28,401 bases of DNA from Gammaproteobacteria bacterium. GTDB lineage: Bacteria; Pseudomonadota; Gammaproteobacteria; Steroidobacterales; Steroidobacteraceae. Below the pieces are notes generated by a model. It was not told the origin of the DNA and did not search any database. It saw only the letters and a program-made list of their open reading frames with translations. The DNA lies in assembly GCA_025350345.1 (NCBI GenBank), contig JANXYA010000049.1, positions 1 through 28,401 of the forward strand. The letters run 5' to 3'. Both the position numbers and the translations under genes were made by a program. Shown one piece after another: positions 14,508 to 18,155 of the stretch (positions are counted from its first letter, which is position 1; each line of letters starts with the position of its first letter).

Positions 14508-15284
14508 CTACCGGACCTGTTGCTCCGGGGCTGCTGGTCGCTGCGCCAGCATCACCAGCAGCCCGATCGCCGCCATCGCCCAGACGATCACCGGGCTCGA
14601 GGGCAGATCGGTGAGCGCCGAGACGATCAGGCCGACGATGTAGCTGGCGGCCGTCAGCAGATAGCCAATGAGCAGCTGTCGCCCCTGCGGATATCGATAG
14701 GTGGCGACCGCCGGAATGATCAGGCTGGAGAACACCAGGTACACGCCCACCAGCTGCACCGACACGGTCACCGTCACGGCAAATACCACGTAGAAGCCGG
14801 TGCGGCCCAGGCGCTCCCGCCACCTGAACCAGGCCAGCAGCACGAACGCCGTCAGTACCGCGGCACGTACCAGCTGCGGCATTGAGACCCACAGGATCTG
14901 CCCTGCCAGCAGATCCTTCAGGTCCTCGCCACCGTGCGGATCGTTGGCAAGCAGCAGGATCTGCGCGGTGGAAGCAAGCACGAACAGCACGCCAATCAGC
15001 GCTTCCTGCACCTCCGGGCGCCGCTTCTCCGTCCAGGTCAGCAGCAGCGCCGCGAGCAGCGCCGCGCTCACTGCGGCCAGCTGCGTCACCCAGCCCTGCA
15101 GTTCAAGGCCGAAGAAATGCGCGGCGATCACGCCAACACCGGCCACCTGGGCGATGGCCAGGTCGATAAAGACGATGCCGCGCGCGAGCACCTGCTGTCC
15201 GAGCGGCACGTGCGAGGCCAGCACGATGAGCCCCGCCAGCAGTGCCGGCCACAGGATGCTCAGGTTGGCCGACAGCGCGCTCAT
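14508..15284 (-). CDS. Metal ABC-type transporter permease (ZnuB/ABC-3-like)
   Basis: HVPLGQQVLARGIVFIDLAIAQVAGVG, QEALIG, LKDLLAGQILW, VQLVGVYLVFSSLIIPA; about 8 TM; ATGA overlap with the SBP. Confidence 0.88.
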   Translation of the reverse strand: MSALSANLSILWPALLAGLIVLASHVPLGQQVLARGIVFIDLAIAQVAGVGVIAAHFFGLELQGWVTQLAAVSAALLAALLLTWTEKRRPEVQEALIGVLFVLASTAQILLLANDPHGGEDLKDLLAGQILWVSMPQLVRAAVLTAFVLLAWFRWRERLGRTGFYVVFAVTVTVSVQLVGVYLVFSSLIIPAVATYRYPQGRQLLIGYLLTAASYIVGLIVSALTDLPSSPVIVWAMAAIGLLVMLAQRPAAPEQQVR

Positions 15285-16186
15285 TTGACGGCACCGAGCA
15301 GGCGCGCGATGGTGTCGTCGAACAGCGTGAACAGGTCATGCGCCGCAGGCGTTCCGCCGACTGAATAGGGCAACAGCACCACAGGCACGTGAATGCGCTC
15401 GGACAGCCAGTCCGCCGCCTTGGAGTCGTTGTAGGCGTTGCGCAGGATCAGCTTCGGAGGCGCAGCCGAGAGCTTGGTCACCAGTTCCGCCAGGTAGCTG
15501 CTGCTGGGCGGCACGCCCGGCTTCGGTTCGATGGCGGCCACCTCCCGCAGCCCCAGCCAGTGGCACAGGTAAGCCTGGTCGCGATGGATCACTACGACGG
15601 GCACACCCTTCAGCGGCGCGGCCTGCTGCTCCCAGCGTACTATGGCCGCCTGCCAGCGCGACTGGAAATCGCTCCCGCGACCCTGGTAGTAGCTGGCGTT
15701 CGCGGCATCGAGCGTGGCCAGTCTCGCGCTCAGCGCCGCCGCCACGATCGCGATGTTGTGCGGATCCAGGTGCGCGTGCGGATTGCCGAGGGGGTGCACA
15801 TCGCCCATCGAGCGATCGACGGCGGAGGGCACCTCGAGCAGCCGCAGATTGGTATCGGCCTCAAAGTTGCCGGGGTTGCCCGGCTGGATGCGCGCGTTGC
15901 CCGATTCGCGCAGCAGTACCGGCAACCAGCCGATCTCGAGCTCGGCACCGGCCGCGACCACCAGGTCCGCATTGCGCGCCCGCGCCACCAGGCTGGGCTT
16001 GGCGTCGACGCGGTGCACGTCCTGGAAGGCGCTGGTCGCGGCGTACACATCGACCTTGTCGCCGCCCAGTTCCCGCGTCAGCGCGGCCCACTCCGGCGTC
16101 GTGGCCAGCACTCTGATGGCAGCCTGCGCGGGCAGCGTCACGGCGGCAATCAGGATGGCCGCGGCAATTTTCACAATACTGTTCAT
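15281..16186 (-). CDS. Zn/Mn-type (TroA/ZnuA-like) substrate-binding protein
   Basis: Signal peptide ending AQA; QDVH.VDAKPS, AELEIGWLP, MGDVHPLGNPH.HLDP, EPKPGVPPS. Start at 16186 gives 8-nt spacing from GGAG. Confidence 0.9.
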   Translation of the reverse strand: MNSIVKIAAAILIAAVTLPAQAAIRVLATTPEWAALTRELGGDKVDVYAATSAFQDVHRVDAKPSLVARARNADLVVAAGAELEIGWLPVLLRESGNARIQPGNPGNFEADTNLRLLEVPSAVDRSMGDVHPLGNPHAHLDPHNIAIVAAALSARLATLDAANASYYQGRGSDFQSRWQAAIVRWEQQAAPLKGVPVVVIHRDQAYLCHWLGLREVAAIEPKPGVPPSSSYLAELVTKLSAAPPKLILRNAYNDSKAADWLSERIHVPVVLLPYSVGGTPAAHDLFTLFDDTIARLLGAVK

Positions 16187-16197
16187 GATCATGGCTC

Positions 16198-17640
16198 CTA
16201 GAACTTGTGGGCGCCGTGCGCGCCGATGCTGTAGAGGTATTGCAGCATGAGCTGCCGATCGCGGAGGTCGAGGCGCGCATCGTCCCAGGCGTACTGCGCA
16301 CGCAGTCGCGTGAACTCGCTGGGATTCCAGTCAAACATCACGCTGACGCGGGTCGGCTTGGCCGGCGCCAGCGTCGGGAAGCTGATGGGAGGCAGCAGGC
16401 CGCTGTCGATGAGGCCGATGTAAGTGCTGCCCGAATCAAGCGCGTCGTAGCGGGCGCCGAAGCGCCAGCGCGGCATGAACTGATACACGCCCTGTGCGTA
16501 CCAGCCCGATTGCCGGCTGCGGTAAGGCGCCGACAGCGTCAGCTGATTGATCGTCGCCGCGAGCTGTCCGTCCTCGGTGCGCTGCAGGTACTCCGCCTGC
16601 AGCTTCAGCGAGTGCACGTTGGCATTGCCGTGCGGTGACCACTTCAGGATCCCATCGACCACCCAGGTGTGCGAATCGCCGGTGAATGCCTCATCGTTCG
16701 GAACACCGCCCGCCGTGATGTCGGTGAAACTGCGGTCTTCGGCGCGCGCGTCCAGCCACGACAGTCCGAGGCGCCAGCTGGTCGAATCGCCGATGTCATC
16801 GCCCACATGCGCCAGCAGCGCGCCGCCGTTGAGGCCGTTGCCCTGCAGGCTGGTGCGCGGAAACTGCGCGCCGTTGCCGGTCTCCGCGCCGAGTTCGACA
16901 AAAATGTCCGTCGGTGCCACCCACTTGAGCTGGGCGCCGTCCTGCGCCAGCTGCCCGCCGAACATCGCCTGGTAAATGAGCGGCTGGTCCACGAAATCCC
17001 AGGCGTGGCTGTGAACTTCGTTCAGGTAGCCCAGGCCGGAGAAGAACCGCCCCGCCTTGATCGACAGGCCGGAGGGCAGGGCGAAGGTCTTGACGTAGGC
17101 CTCTTCCACACTGATCGAATTGTCGCCGGTGATGGCGGTGGTGAGATTGGCGAAGAAATAGGGATCGACGTTGGCTGCGAGCGACAGCTCGGATTCACCC
17201 AGGGTGAAGCCGCGCGGGCCCGGGCCCACTCCCTCGCCCGCCGGCATGAAGCCGGCGATGCGATAAGTCGCCGGATCCTCGGACAGCTGCGCATAGCGGC
17301 CGCCGAGAATGACCGAGATGGCCGGATTGAAGGCATTCTGTCCGCCCCCGCCTCCCGGAACGCTGGGTGGCAACGCCACGGCAGCAGGGGCCGGGACCTC
17401 CGCCGCCGCAACCGGCGGCGCGGCGCTGGACGCCGCAGCGCTCGAGGCCGCGGCGAGCTGCGACTCGAGCTGTGCCACGCGCGCCTCGAGCGCGCTGAGC
17501 TCCTCCTGGTAGCTTGATTTCACCGCGTCGAGCTCCGATCGCAGCTCGCTCAGCTCGGACGCACGCGCCGGCATCACCGCCAGCGCCAGCAGGCTCAACG
17601 CCGCCAGGCGCAATACGCCTATAGCCTTGTATCTGATCAT
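16198..17640 (-). CDS. Outer-membrane beta-barrel (porin-like) associated with metal uptake
   Basis: Signal peptide, coiled coil, Ala/Pro linker, NAFNPAISVIL, GESEL.L.ANVDPYF, NEVHSHAWDFVDQPL, alternating beta-strand patterns, C-terminal GAHGAHKF; GGAGAGG RBS. Confidence 0.8.
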   Translation of the reverse strand: MIRYKAIGVLRLAALSLLALAVMPARASELSELRSELDAVKSSYQEELSALEARVAQLESQLAAASSAAASSAAPPVAAAEVPAPAAVALPPSVPGGGGGQNAFNPAISVILGGRYAQLSEDPATYRIAGFMPAGEGVGPGPRGFTLGESELSLAANVDPYFFANLTTAITGDNSISVEEAYVKTFALPSGLSIKAGRFFSGLGYLNEVHSHAWDFVDQPLIYQAMFGGQLAQDGAQLKWVAPTDIFVELGAETGNGAQFPRTSLQGNGLNGGALLAHVGDDIGDSTSWRLGLSWLDARAEDRSFTDITAGGVPNDEAFTGDSHTWVVDGILKWSPHGNANVHSLKLQAEYLQRTEDGQLAATINQLTLSAPYRSRQSGWYAQGVYQFMPRWRFGARYDALDSGSTYIGLIDSGLLPPISFPTLAPAKPTRVSVMFDWNPSEFTRLRAQYAWDDARLDLRDRQLMLQYLYSIGAHGAHKF

Positions 17641-17705
17641 GGGACCGCCTCTCCAAACTCATGAGAATCGCCGGACCGCCGCGGCGGCCGGACCCGTGCC
17701 GAGAG

Positions 17706-18026
17706 CTACGGGTGAGCGGGCGGGGCTCGAGAGCGATAGGCAGTGTGAGTGGCGGCGCGCGGCTGCAGCTGCGCCTGAAAGGCGATGACGGAGGATGCGC
17801 GTGCCGGCAGATGCAGCAGAGGAACCGCTGAACCGCCCACGGTGGCCAGGAGCGGTGCAAAGGCCACGCACTCGCTGCAGGTCAGTGCATGGACGCGCTG
17901 CGGCTCGTCATTGGCGTCGCGCGCTACGGTCAGGTGCGAGTAGGCGTGCGCCTGCGCCCCCAGCTGCGCGATCACGAGGACCAGCGCCTGGAGCTTGCAC
18001 AGTACCCTTAGCCTGGAAAGACGCAT
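17706..18026 (-). CDS. DUF2946-like upstream ORF with CxxC and C-terminal RAPP motif
   Basis: 106 aa from ATG 18026: hydrophobic N-terminus, AHAYSH, CSEC (17868-17879), and ...YRSRAPPAHP* (RAPP codons 17718-17729); ends 65 nt before the porin start. Confidence 0.75.
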   Translation of the reverse strand: MRLSRLRVLCKLQALVLVIAQLGAQAHAYSHLTVARDANDEPQRVHALTCSECVAFAPLLATVGGSAVPLLHLPARASSVIAFQAQLQPRAATHTAYRSRAPPAHP

Positions 18027-18052
18027 CTGCTGGCTGCCGCTCACTGCGTGGA

Positions 18053-18081
18053 ATCCTAGCACTTTCAGCGGGTTAAAGCAG
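18053..18081 (-). promoter_or_regulatory. Candidate extended -10 sigma70 promoter for the uORF/metal operon
   Basis: Minus strand CTGCTT-N17-TAGGAT with TGn directly upstream of the -10 (TGcTAGGAT); about 27 nt above ATG 18026. Confidence 0.5.
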
Positions 18082-18155
18082 CGCCCGCGGGCTGTAAACG
18101 ATCTGTAGGTACCCGGTAAGCCACCGGCAAGTAGCCCTGGGGCATCGTTGGCCCC

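What the first reader, a model, noticed from the sequence alone, without database searches (positions are those of the whole stretch)
17641..18081. CxxC/RAPP upstream ORF: candidate metal-sensing ribosome-arrest regulator of the uptake operon
Seen: its own extended -10 promoter, then a 106-aa ORF with an export-like hydrophobic N-terminus, H27/H31, CSEC and RAPP five to eight codons from the end. Then a 65-nt GC-rich spacer (CCGGCCGCC..GGCGGTCCGG hairpin; CTCTC just after the stop is complementary to GAGAG in the porin SD GGAGAGG). Established, from recall: RAPP-like motifs cause ribosome arrest in ApdA/ApdP, and DUF2946-type uORFs (Bordetella CruR, Rhodobacter CutF) control downstream copper-related genes post-transcriptionally. 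Inference: stalling at RAPP, modulated by metal binding to CxxC during export, switches translation or termination of a Zn/Mn-type porin-SBP-permease operon. This would extend the mechanism to a new transporter class.
Basis: partly seen in the sequence, partly recalled or inferred. Interest (0 to 1): 0.8.

Follow-up and report, generated by a model that had tools for sequence, protein, structure and literature searches.

The report
Metal-sensing ribosome-stalling leader gene
A small conserved gene in front of a metal-uptake operon has the hallmarks of the copper-sensing leader peptide CruR (two cysteines, a fixed 46-residue spacer, then the ribosome-stalling ending Arg-Ala-Pro-Pro), so it most likely switches the operon by stalling its own ribosome; here the cargo is a zinc-type porin/binding-protein/permease module, which has not been described for such leaders.

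Summary
The minus-strand ORF 17706-18026 (106 aa) has an export-like N-terminus, H27/H31, CSEC at 50-53 and RAPP at 100-103. A stop follows three codons later, then a 65-nt spacer and the porin gene.

- **Conservation:** about 120 close homologues and 1296 representative clusters share these features. CxxC and RAPP are exactly 46 residues apart in nearly all, while the spacer sequence varies. All synonymous codons occur in RAPP.
- **Family:** this is the CruR/DUF2946 signature (PMC9426467), but the Pfam model scores below its cut-off. I treat it as an unannotated sister subfamily with an added HxYxH motif.
- **Context:** in 120 loci the leader precedes either this porin family (49) or a TonB receptor (about 45). 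The two leader groups separate almost completely on a tree.
- **Metal:** cargo is zinc-type (His3 ZnuA-like binding protein, ABC-3 permease, ZIP, CDF), so zinc is favoured over copper. This is untested.
- **RNA:** Family-wide, the three codons after RAPP are locus-specifically complementary to the next gene's ribosome-binding site (z about -9), but not in this window's clade. A CruR-like C>G bubble is present.

The scan has noted CruR-like leaders before on other DNA (115 notes).

Verdict: new variant of a known kind; mechanism inferred, not shown.

The parts
18053..18061 (-). Promoter-like extended -10 element (TG-n-TAGGAT). It ends 8 nt before the in-frame GTG at 18044.
   Evidence: Read directly. 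The block CTGAAAGTGCTAGGATTC is conserved in the clade while its flanks diverge. TGnTAnnnT-type elements recur at a clade-specific offset across many of the loci. The two-hexamer promoter scan does not call it.
17706..18026 (-). Leader ORF, 106 aa from the ATG (112 aa if the GTG at 18044-18042 is the start). It is a CruR-like CxxC/RAPP arrest-peptide candidate.
   Evidence: There are 120 homologues and 1296 representative clusters at E<=1e-3. Synonymous codon variation in RSRAPP shows selection on the peptide.
17943..18026 (-). Export-like N-terminus (residues 1-28): basic n-region, hydrophobic core, and AQA-HA candidate signal-peptidase sites.
   Evidence: By inspection and the alignment. No signal-peptide predictor was available.
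17934..17948 (-). HAYSH motif (H27, H31), a candidate second metal-binding site that is specific to this subfamily.
   Evidence: Q21, G23, A24, H27, A28, Y29 and H31 are invariant in 27 diverse members. An H-x-Y/C-x-H form (HxYxH in all but two) was found in about 128 of 144 representatives.
17868..17879 (-). CSEC, the CxxC metal-binding motif (C50, C53), followed by the conserved FAPLL.
   Evidence: C50, C53, A57, P58, L59 and L60 are invariant. CxxC is present in all 120 homologues.
17730..17867 (-). 46-residue spacer of variable sequence and fixed length between CxxC and RAPP. Its 3' part lies inside the C>G bubble.
   Evidence: Spacing is 46 in 118 of 118 and in 131 of 133. The sequence is variable.
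17690..17830 (-). C-rich, G-poor tract (C>G bubble). C/G reaches 2.8 and the tract ends in the intergenic spacer. It is a candidate Rho-utilisation region.
   Evidence: Sliding windows. It is family-wide: C 0.44-0.47 and G 0.22-0.24 in the last 78 nt of the leader. CruR has the same feature.
17718..17738 (-). Y-R-S-R-A-P-P arrest motif (RAPP = 17729-17718). The predicted stall has Pro102 (17723-17721) in the P site and Pro103 (17720-17718) in the A site.
   Evidence: [YF]RSRAPP is nearly invariant. The stall position is taken from ApdA/ApdP and CruR experiments (PMC10951233, PMC12992588) and is inferred here.
17706..17717 (-). Three-codon tail (A-H-P) plus the TAG stop. It would lie inside the footprint of a ribosome stalled at RAPP. 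Its CACCCGT pairs with ACGGGT (17697-17692).
   Evidence: The tail is 3 residues in 89 of 118 and 102 of 133. The local pairing is seen. In other clades the tail is complementary to the SD.
17641..17705 (-). 65-nt intergenic spacer. It holds hairpin 2 (17691-17671), a direct repeat of GGCGGTCC (17680-17673 and 17649-17642), and the SD GGAGAGG (17654-17648).
   Evidence: Sequence is conserved in the clade, but the consensus structure has only one both-sides change among 34 predicted pairs and an unfavourable covariation term.
16198..17640 (-). First regulated gene: a 480-aa outer-membrane porin-like protein with an N-terminal coiled coil.
   Evidence: Weak BBP2 hit. Atlas neighbours are 'Porin family protein', Porin_O_P and BBP2. 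It is the first downstream gene in 49 of 120 loci.
15281..16192 (-). ZnuA-family (cluster A-I) periplasmic metal-binding protein with His at the three canonical ligand positions (H60, H139, H203).
   Evidence: PF01297, E 7.7e-37. AztC and MntC models score below threshold. Alignment to solved structures is and the sequence.
14508..15284 (-). ABC-3 family permease, the last gene of the operon. No ATPase gene follows it.
   Evidence: PF00950. The next genes are convergent GFA and cupin genes. Gene order is conserved in 28 genome loci.

Best explanation
The ORF is a cis-acting regulatory leader of the CruR type, not an ordinary protein gene.

**Proposed mechanism (inferred)**
1. It is transcribed from its own promoter and starts being exported through Sec.
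2. When codons 102/103 (Pro-Pro of RAPP) reach the P and A sites, peptide-bond formation fails and the ribosome stalls.
3. At that moment C53 lies 49 residues behind the peptidyl-transferase centre. The CxxC and HxYxH sites have then just left the ribosome tunnel or translocon, which would explain the invariant 46-residue ruler.
4. By analogy with CruR and because the cargo is an uptake module, the stall should persist without metal. The stalled ribosome covers about 17738-17706, including the 3' end of the C-rich tract and the stop codon. It blocks Rho and lets RNA polymerase read into porin-SBP-permease, so the operon is ON.
5. When the metal binds the nascent chain, the stall is relieved. 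Translation ends three codons later, the C-rich RNA is bare, and Rho terminates in the 65-nt spacer, so the operon is OFF.

**My odds**
- Arrest-peptide leader that controls the operon: about 0.8.
- Output in this locus: Rho-type attenuation about 0.45, SD masking about 0.3, both or other for the rest.
- Metal: zinc about 0.45, copper about 0.3, other about 0.25.

**Shown:** motifs, spacing, conservation and context.
**Inferred:** stalling, metal sensing, polarity and output.
For: - **Motif architecture:** identical to CruR, with CXXC, a 45-46 aa spacer, and RAPP 3 residues from the end.
- **Conservation pattern:** typical of an arrest peptide. [YF]RSRAPP is nearly invariant, the spacer is variable but of fixed length, and all synonymous codons are used.
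- **Pfam:** DUF2946 is the leading Pfam match (in 18 of 27 members; best E 2e-4) although below threshold; the window's own sequence scores about as well against Cas_Cas5d.
- **Experimental precedent:** RAPP stalls ribosomes with Pro/Pro in the P and A sites in ApdA, ApdP and CruR. CruR mutagenesis shows RAPP, CXXC and the spacing are needed for control.
- **Position in the operon:** the leader is always the first gene, with its own promoter-like element. It sits before an outer-membrane gate gene in about 94 of 120 loci.
- **Co-inheritance with cargo:** only 2 label changes on the tree against 21 expected.
- **Rho-type signal:** a C>G bubble runs from mid-leader into the spacer, as at the CruR rut site.
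- **RNA link in other clades:** the post-RAPP tail is locus-specifically complementary to the SD (own -13.3 against permuted -9.6 +/- 0.4 kcal/mol, 0 of 20000; controls flat). This ties the stall site to downstream expression in the family.
Against: - There are no experimental data for this family, and no RNA runs hold this DNA.
- The Pfam score is below the gathering cut-off. A profile-profile comparison with three bona fide DUF2946 proteins aligns only the RAPP end (probability 1.9%), so common descent is not shown.
- In the window's own clade the tail-SD signal is absent (z = 0.2).
- The spacer structure has no compensatory support and no excess stability.
- Footprint-constrained folding does not open the SD.
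- C-richness could follow from Pro/Ala/Thr/His codon content alone.
- The 65-nt spacer is much shorter than the 162 nt of CruR.
- Zinc is inferred only from cargo family names and His3 ligand positions. CxxC is a classic Cu(I) site.
Confidence: 0.72

Rival explanations
1. Same arrest leader, but the output is translational, as in CutF. An RNA helix masks the porin SD (GGAGAGG), and the stalled ribosome opens it. The partner could be the reader's CTCTC after the stop, the CTCTC in the R-S-R codons, or the 5' arm of hairpin 2, which can also pair with the repeated GGCGGTC next to the SD.
For: - SD masking by the post-RAPP tail is strongly supported in other clades of the same family.
- CutF works this way.
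- The MFE folds pair the SD with CUCUC of the Y-R-S codons.
- WIN has CTCTC/GGAGAG while L001 and L003 have CTCGC/GGCGAG at the R-S-R codons.
Against: - No single partner is kept across the clade. L002, L068, L070 and L071 break the R-S-R pairing; L001 and L074 break the after-stop pairing.
- There is no locus-specific signal for the pre-RAPP or RAPP codons family-wide, nor for the tail in this clade.
- SD accessibility does not change in constrained folds (0.25, 0.21 and 0.22).
- The alignment fold shows no compensatory support.
Confidence: 0.3
2. The ORF encodes a stable small periplasmic metal-binding protein, a chaperone or metal shuttle for the porin/SBP system. RAPP would then be a structural or processing feature rather than a regulatory stall.
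For: - HxYxH and CxxC-FAPLL are invariant and look like a mature metal site.
- The signal peptide predicts export.
- The gene is always co-transcribed with transport genes.
Against: - The 46 residues between CxxC and RAPP vary freely in sequence but never in length. This fits a ruler, not a fold.
- RAPP is an experimentally robust arrest sequence and is depleted from bacterial proteomes except near the C-termini of small exported proteins.
- CruR could not be detected as a protein.
- The tail codons are selected at the RNA level in many loci.
- The two roles are not mutually exclusive.
Confidence: 0.1
3. It is a copper sensor like CruR and CutF. The porin/ZnuA-like/ABC-3 module would then import copper, or be repressed by copper, rather than handle zinc.
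For: - CxxC is a classic Cu(I) ligand pair, and both characterised DUF2946 leaders sense copper.
- If cleavage occurs after AHA, the mature N-terminus would be Y-S-H, an ATCUN-like Cu/Ni motif (inspection).
- The second RAPP leader in this genome sits with AhpC/TSA, as in copper-linked DUF2946 operons.
Against: - The cargo families in this subfamily are zinc-type: a His3 ZnuA-family SBP, ABC-3, ZIP, CDF and one ZnuD-like TBDT. No TIGR01778 copper receptor, PCuAC, YcnI or CopC was seen in the subset of downstream genes scanned.
- In Caulobacter, a DUF2946 gene carrying a predicted Zur-box sequence precedes the czrCBA zinc/cadmium efflux genes in the Zur regulon table.
Confidence: 0.3
4. It is a chance ORF in GC-rich DNA that happens to contain CxxC and RAPP.
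For: The genome is 67% GC and full of spurious ORFs. Twelve other small ORFs in this genome end with R[AG]PP and look like noise.
Against: - There are hundreds of homologues with invariant motifs, fixed spacing and synonymous codon turnover.
- Synteny is conserved.
Confidence: 0.01

Closest known systems
CruR (Bp2923) of Bordetella pertussis, prototype of Pfam DUF2946/PF11162 (Roy et al. 2022, PMC9426467)
   Same: - It is a small exported leader, the first gene of a metal-transport operon led by an outer-membrane protein.
- CXXC is followed by a fixed spacer (45 aa there, 46 here), then RAPP three residues before the stop.
- A C>G bubble runs from the second half of the leader into the intergenic region.
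   Different: - It falls below the Pfam cut-off, and only the RAPP end aligns profile to profile.
- The motif is C-x-[ED]-C-x-x-FAPLL rather than [H/Q/D]-C-P-x-C.
- An invariant HxYxH replaces the semi-conserved upstream Cys.
- It is shorter (106 against 145 aa), with a 65-nt spacer against 162 nt.
- The cargo is a porin plus ZnuA-type SBP plus ABC-3 permease, or a TBDT with ZIP/CDF, rather than TBDT plus PepSY. The metal is probably not copper.
CutF of Rhodobacter capsulatus (cutFOG; PMC9973294, bioRxiv 10.1101/2025.02.05.636593)
   Same: - It is an exported nascent-chain metal sensor with a C-terminal proline stall.
- The stalled ribosome unmasks the SD of the next gene. This logic is matched by the tail/SD complementarity in other clades of this family.
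   Different: - CutF has CxxxC and a PPP stall that depends on EF-P, and copper induces the stall to switch on a detoxifying oxidase.
- Here the motifs are CxxC and RAPP, and the cargo is an uptake operon, so the opposite polarity is expected.
- SD masking is not supported in this window's clade.
RAPP-type arrest peptides ApdA/ApdP and the RAPP/RGPP uORFs surveyed by Fujiwara et al. 2025 (PMC7897499, PMC10951233, PMC12992588)
   Same: - RAPP lies near the C-terminus of a small secreted protein encoded upstream of the regulated gene.
[quoted passage not shown]
- That survey lists TonB receptors and metal genes among the downstream classes.
   Different: - ApdA and ApdP monitor Sec/YidC activity and precede sec genes. 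They have no CxxC and no fixed ruler.
- That paper does not mention porin, zinc or ABC substrate-binding contexts.
SecM of Escherichia coli
   Same: It is an exported leader whose C-terminal R-A-G-P stall controls the downstream gene, and the stall is relieved by a pulling force on the nascent chain.
   Different: SecM senses secretion activity rather than a metal. Its output is unmasking of the secA SD. It shows no sequence relationship to this leader.

Membership tests
DUF2946 / CruR family (PF11162) | Scores at or above the Pfam gathering cut-off (23.7 bits) | tested here: not met
   The score is 16.8 bits (E 0.012). Of 27 diverse members, 18 hit at E<1, best 2e-4. The whole-genome scan gives 16.5 bits.
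DUF2946 / CruR family (PF11162) | Conserved CXXC motif | tested here: met
   C50 and C53 are invariant. The motif is present in all 120 homologues.
DUF2946 / CruR family (PF11162) | C-terminal RAPP motif about 3 residues from the end | tested here: met
   RAPP is at 100-103 of 106. R[AGT]PP is present in 118 of 120 homologues (RAPP itself in 116), with a tail of 3 residues in 89 of 118.
DUF2946 / CruR family (PF11162) | [quoted passage not shown] | tested here: met
   The spacing is 46 residues in 118 of 118 and in 131 of 133. Three bona fide DUF2946 proteins have 43, 47 and 47. The family rule is quoted.
DUF2946 / CruR family (PF11162) | N-terminal export signal | tested here: inconclusive
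   A basic n-region, hydrophobic core and AxA sites are seen by inspection. No predictor was run.
DUF2946 / CruR family (PF11162) | First gene of an operon of metal-homeostasis genes, with a sizeable intergenic gap | tested here: met
   The leader is followed by porin, ZnuA-like SBP and ABC-3 permease after a 65-nt gap. The same order is found in 28 genome loci. The first downstream gene is a porin or TBDT in about 94 of 120 loci.
DUF2946 / CruR family (PF11162) | Detectable homology across the whole length to bona fide members | tested here: inconclusive
   hhalign of A1 against A3 (only 3 sequences) aligns 18 columns at the RAPP end with probability 1.9%.
DUF2946 / CruR family (PF11162) | RAPP-dependent ribosome arrest and metal-dependent control of the downstream genes | not testable with these tools
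   This needs toeprinting and reporter assays. No RNA runs hold this DNA.
CutF-type SD-masking switch | An RNA helix masks the downstream SD and lies within reach of the stalled ribosome | tested here: not met
   It is met in other clades of the family (tail against SD, z = -9.1 to -9.8). In the window's clade z = 0.2, and SD accessibility does not change in constrained folds.
CutF-type SD-masking switch | CxxxC motif and a PPP stall | tested here: not met
   The motifs here are CSEC (CxxC) and RAPP followed by Ala.
Sec/YidC monitoring substrates (ApdA, ApdP, SecM) | Encoded upstream of a protein-localisation gene (secA, secDF, yidC) | tested here: not met
   The downstream genes are a porin, a metal SBP and a permease.
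Sec/YidC monitoring substrates (ApdA, ApdP, SecM) | RAPP-like arrest core near the C-terminus of a small exported protein | tested here: met

The most novel reading that the evidence does not exclude
This is a zinc-sensing (or otherwise non-copper) nascent-chain sensor family. It would read periplasmic metal through HxYxH plus CxxC exactly when a 46-residue ruler places these sites at the translocon exit and RAPP at the peptidyl-transferase centre. It would gate an unusual ATPase-less porin/binding-protein/permease uptake module. The same leader would have evolved two different RNA outputs in sister clades: an anti-SD tail in one, and Rho or another mechanism in the other.
Probability: 0.3. 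Interest if true: 0.7.

Novelty: new variant of a known kind. Interest (0 to 1): 0.5.

Why it matters
Metal-sensing arrest peptides are known from only two studied cases, CruR and CutF, and both sense copper.

- **Size of the branch.** This is a large unannotated branch: 1296 representative clusters, mostly in Steroidobacteraceae-like soil and sediment Gammaproteobacteria. Pfam does not capture it.
- **Different sensor and cargo.** It carries an extra HxYxH motif and controls zinc-type transport genes, including a porin-led module with no ATPase gene in the operon.
- **If zinc is confirmed.** The principle of nascent-chain metal sensing would extend beyond copper. It would also explain how these operons could be regulated without a Zur box; none was found upstream with one simple pattern search.
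- **A testable RNA rule.** Across the family, the three codons after RAPP are complementary to the next gene's ribosome-binding site. This gives a sequence-level explanation for why RAPP sits exactly three codons from the stop, and a compensatory-mutation test could be designed from the paired sequences.

Tried and rejected
- **Pfam/NCBIfam assignment of the leader.** Only sub-threshold DUF2946 hits were found.
- **Profile-profile comparison with bona fide DUF2946.** It was uninformative: three template sequences, and only the RAPP end aligned. A class-wide genome scan gave just 3 DUF2946 genes in 151 genomes.
- **Single-sequence folding of the spacer.** It is no more stable than shuffles.
- **RNAalifold on 11 clade members.** Only one both-sides change occurs among 34 pairs, because the sequences are too similar.
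- **Ribosome-footprint-constrained partition functions.** The effect was small and noisy (mean SD accessibility 0.38 to 0.44) and nil for the window.
Neither is kept across the clade. Family-wide controls for the pre-RAPP and RAPP codons are flat.
- **Intrinsic terminator.** None was found.
- **Zur/Fur-like operator upstream of the leaders.** A simple GTWAY-N(3-9)-RTWAC search found no inverted repeat in 77 loci.
- **Other RAPP leaders in this genome.** Only one more convincing case was found, on contig C121; the other 12 hits look like GC-rich noise.
- **RNA-seq evidence for attenuation.** Only DNA runs of sediment and soil metagenomes hold this sequence.
- **Literature search for a CruR-zinc link.** The first query matched only 'cruris' noise. 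The second found no zinc, porin or ZnuA context.
Full report
**1. Observation**

On the minus strand an ORF runs from ATG 18026 to TAG 17708-17706 (106 aa). An in-frame GTG at 18044 would give 112 aa, the length of the database gene model.

Its features are:
- an N-terminus with a basic stretch, a hydrophobic core and AQA/AHA sites;
- HAYSH at residues 27-31;
- CSEC at 50-53;
- RAPP at 100-103, followed by A-H-P and the stop.

The spacer to the next ATG (17640) is 65 nt and carries GGAGAGG at 17654-17648. The region is no more stable than dinucleotide shuffles (z = -0.02). No intrinsic terminator or two-hexamer promoter is called.

**2. It is a real, conserved gene**

A word-indexed search found about 120 homologues of 88-130 aa.
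- All have CxxC.
- 116 have RAPP; one has RGPP and one RTPP.
- In all 118 with both motifs, the two are exactly 46 residues apart.
- The tail after RAPP is 3 residues in 89 and 6 in 26.

In a 27-sequence alignment the invariant columns are Q21, G23, A24, H27, A28, Y29, H31, C50, C53, A57-L60, R100, P102 and P103. The 46-residue spacer is almost free in sequence.

A profile search of 1.8 billion cluster representatives gave 1296 hits at E<=1e-3. Of the best 133 with both motifs, 131 again have a spacing of 46 and 102 a 3-residue tail.

At the DNA level all four synonymous codons occur at R, A, P and P across loci, so selection acts on the peptide.

**3. Relation to known families**

Roy et al. 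(PMC9426467) define DUF2946/CruR by four things:
- an export signal;
- CXXC;
- RAPP three residues from the C-terminus;
- a spacing of 45 residues, kept to within one or two.

They show that RAPP, CXXC and the spacing are all needed for copper control of the downstream TonB receptor.

[quoted passage not shown] For CruR itself this stall position was suggested by toeprinting.

The window's leader meets every motif criterion but scores 16.8 bits against PF11162, whose cut-off is 23.7. Of 27 members, 18 give sub-threshold hits. hhalign against three bona fide DUF2946 genes fetched from genomes aligns only the RAPP end.

I therefore do not file it as a Pfam DUF2946 member. I call it a CruR-like sister subfamily. 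It differs by HxYxH in place of the upstream Cys, and by C-x-[ED]-C-x-x-FAPLL in place of C-P-x-C.

**4. Context and cargo**

Downstream in the window are three genes:
- a 480-aa porin-like protein (weak BBP2; Atlas neighbours are 'Porin family protein' and Porin_O_P);
- a ZnuA-family binding protein (PF01297, 7.7e-37);
- an ABC-3 permease.

Convergent GFA and cupin genes follow, so no ATPase gene is present.

The binding protein has His at the three canonical ligand positions (H60, H139, H203). This is the zinc/TroA-type set rather than the His-His-Glu-Asp manganese set. I infer this from the alignment and the sequence.

In 60 genome loci, all from Steroidobacteraceae or unclassified Gammaproteobacteria/Pseudomonadota MAGs, 28 keep leader-porin-SBP-permease where the contig is long enough (25 complete, 3 cut short). 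Over 120 genome and metagenome loci the first downstream gene is this porin family in 49 and a TonB-dependent receptor in about 45.

The TonB loci often add zinc-type genes:
- a ZIP transporter;
- a CDF;
- in one case a ZnuD-like receptor;
- in a few cases HME-RND efflux genes.

A leader tree separates porin-linked from TonB-linked leaders with only two label changes, against 21 expected. Leader and cargo have therefore been inherited together for a long time.

The held papers on CruR and RAPP uORFs mention no zinc, porin or ZnuA context. In Caulobacter, a DUF2946 gene carrying a predicted Zur-box sequence precedes the czrCBA efflux genes in the Zur regulon table.

**5. RNA level**

Printing the codons after RAPP next to each spacer showed that the tail plus stop is often the reverse complement of the next gene's SD or its 5' flank. 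There are compensatory differences between loci. Examples:
- GTTCTTCTC/GAGGAGAAC against GTCCTTCTC/GAGGAGGAC;
- AGAACCCC/GGGGTTCT;
- CCTCGATC/GATCGAGG.

| RNAduplex comparison | Representative loci | Own (kcal/mol) | Permuted (kcal/mol) | Result |
|---|---|---|---|---|
| Tail vs own SD window, all clades | 38 dereplicated loci | -13.3 | -9.6 +/- 0.4 | 0 of 20000 permutations as low |
| Four codons before RAPP vs SD window (control) | 38 | -8.6 | -8.7 +/- 0.3 | z = 0.6 |
| RAPP codons vs SD window (control) | 38 | -11.1 | -11.1 +/- 0.3 | z = -0.2 |
| Earlier codons (-12..-5) vs SD window (control) | 38 | -14.7 | -15.0 +/- 0.5 | z = 0.6 |
| Tail vs first 35 nt of spacer (control) | 38 | -7.4 | -7.4 +/- 0.3 | z = 0.1 |
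| Tail vs SD window, window's clade only (with its 6-codon-tail sister) | 7 | -12.5 | -12.7 +/- 0.8 | z = 0.2 |

A ribosome stalled with Pro102 in the P site protects roughly +15 nt. That covers exactly the three tail codons and reaches the stop. In those clades the stall should therefore free the SD, which is CutF-like logic.

This does not hold for the window's own clade. There the tail CACCCGT pairs with ACGGGT ten bases after the stop, followed by hairpin 2.

The alternative CTCTC in the R-S-R codons is lost in L002, L068, L070 and L071. Alifold finds one both-sides change among 34 pairs. Constrained folding leaves the SD about 0.2-0.25 unpaired in the free, stalled and terminating states.

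What the window does share with CruR is a C>G bubble. It runs from about 17830 into the spacer, with C/G up to 2.8. In the last 78 nt of the leader, C is 0.47 and G is 0.24. The next gene has C below G.

**6. Promoter**

The TGcTAGGAT element (18061-18053) lies in a block that is conserved while the flanks diverge. Similar TGnTAnnnT or TTGACC-17-TAGTAT elements sit at a roughly constant offset for each clade before the leader in many of the loci. A simple pattern search found no Zur/Fur-like palindrome in 77 upstream regions. This is consistent with, but does not establish, post-transcriptional control.

**7. Most likely mechanism**

Inferred steps:
1. The leader is exported.
2. The ribosome stalls at Pro102/Pro103.
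3. At that point the CxxC lies 49 residues from the catalytic centre, at the tunnel or translocon exit. This rationalises the invariant ruler.
4. For an uptake operon, and by analogy with CruR, metal-free stalling keeps transcription and translation of porin-SBP-permease on.
5. Metal binding relieves the stall and the ribosome terminates three codons later.
6. The operon is then shut off, by Rho acting on the exposed C-rich RNA (my preference for this locus, about 0.45) or by SD masking (about 0.3).

Zinc is favoured over copper on cargo grounds only.

**8. Verdict**

It is a new variant of a known kind of system: a different sensor motif, a different cargo, probably a different metal, and two RNA outputs within one family. 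Earlier notes of this scan report many CruR-like leaders in other genomes, some with zinc-type cargo or RBS pairing. I tested the pairing idea here independently, and it applies to sister clades only.

Noticed in passing
G000 contig C121, L061:1453-1824 (+): A second RAPP leader lies in the same genome. It is 124 aa with a hydrophobic N-terminus, a His-rich HHLHHHGDSH stretch and a single Cys (HCPF), and it ends QPRAPPRLA. It has no CxxC. It precedes a Phenol_MetA_deg-type outer-membrane channel and an AhpC/TSA thioredoxin-like gene. Its DUF2946 score is 18.3 bits, below the cut-off.
   Followed up: partly
window 14508-17640 (-); also L004:6412-10934: The porin/ZnuA-like/ABC-3 permease module has no ABC ATPase gene. 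In the window it ends convergently on GFA and cupin genes. In L004 the permease is followed by a 181-aa unknown and a DUF481 outer-membrane protein, not an ATPase.
   Followed up: partly
window 18042-18061 (-); L004, L005, L009, L016 and others upstream of the leader: In the sister clade the -10-like element (TAAATT or TAGATT) ends only 6 nt before the leader ATG, so the leader mRNA may be leaderless. In the window TAGGAT ends 8 nt before the conserved in-frame GTG 18044, which may be the true start rather than ATG 18026.
   Followed up: no
window 17673-17680 and 17642-17649 (-): GGCGGTCC occurs twice in the spacer, once as the 3' arm of hairpin 2 and once between the SD and the porin ATG. The 5' arm (GGCCGCC) therefore has two alternative partners, an attenuator-like layout. 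Relatives keep it only imperfectly.
   Followed up: partly
L025:6001-12215; L023 and L036 downstream genes: Some leaders of the same subfamily precede efflux systems: OEP-HlyD-CusA/CzcA in L025, and HlyD plus an RND pump after the TBDT in L023 and L036. An exporter should be switched on by metal, so the same leader would need the opposite regulatory polarity there.
   Followed up: no
window 18092-18107 (-): TACAGATCGTTTACAG lies upstream of the promoter-like element. Close relatives have GTTACAGATCGTTAAC, an imperfect 8+8 inverted repeat whose left half resembles the Caulobacter znuM Zur box quoted in PMC4176598. It is not found outside the clade.
   Followed up: partly
L009 and L012 (both from MAG fen_1191, PMNQ01): One genome carries both a porin-linked and a TonB-receptor-linked leader of this subfamily, so the two operon types coexist as paralogous circuits.
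   Followed up: no
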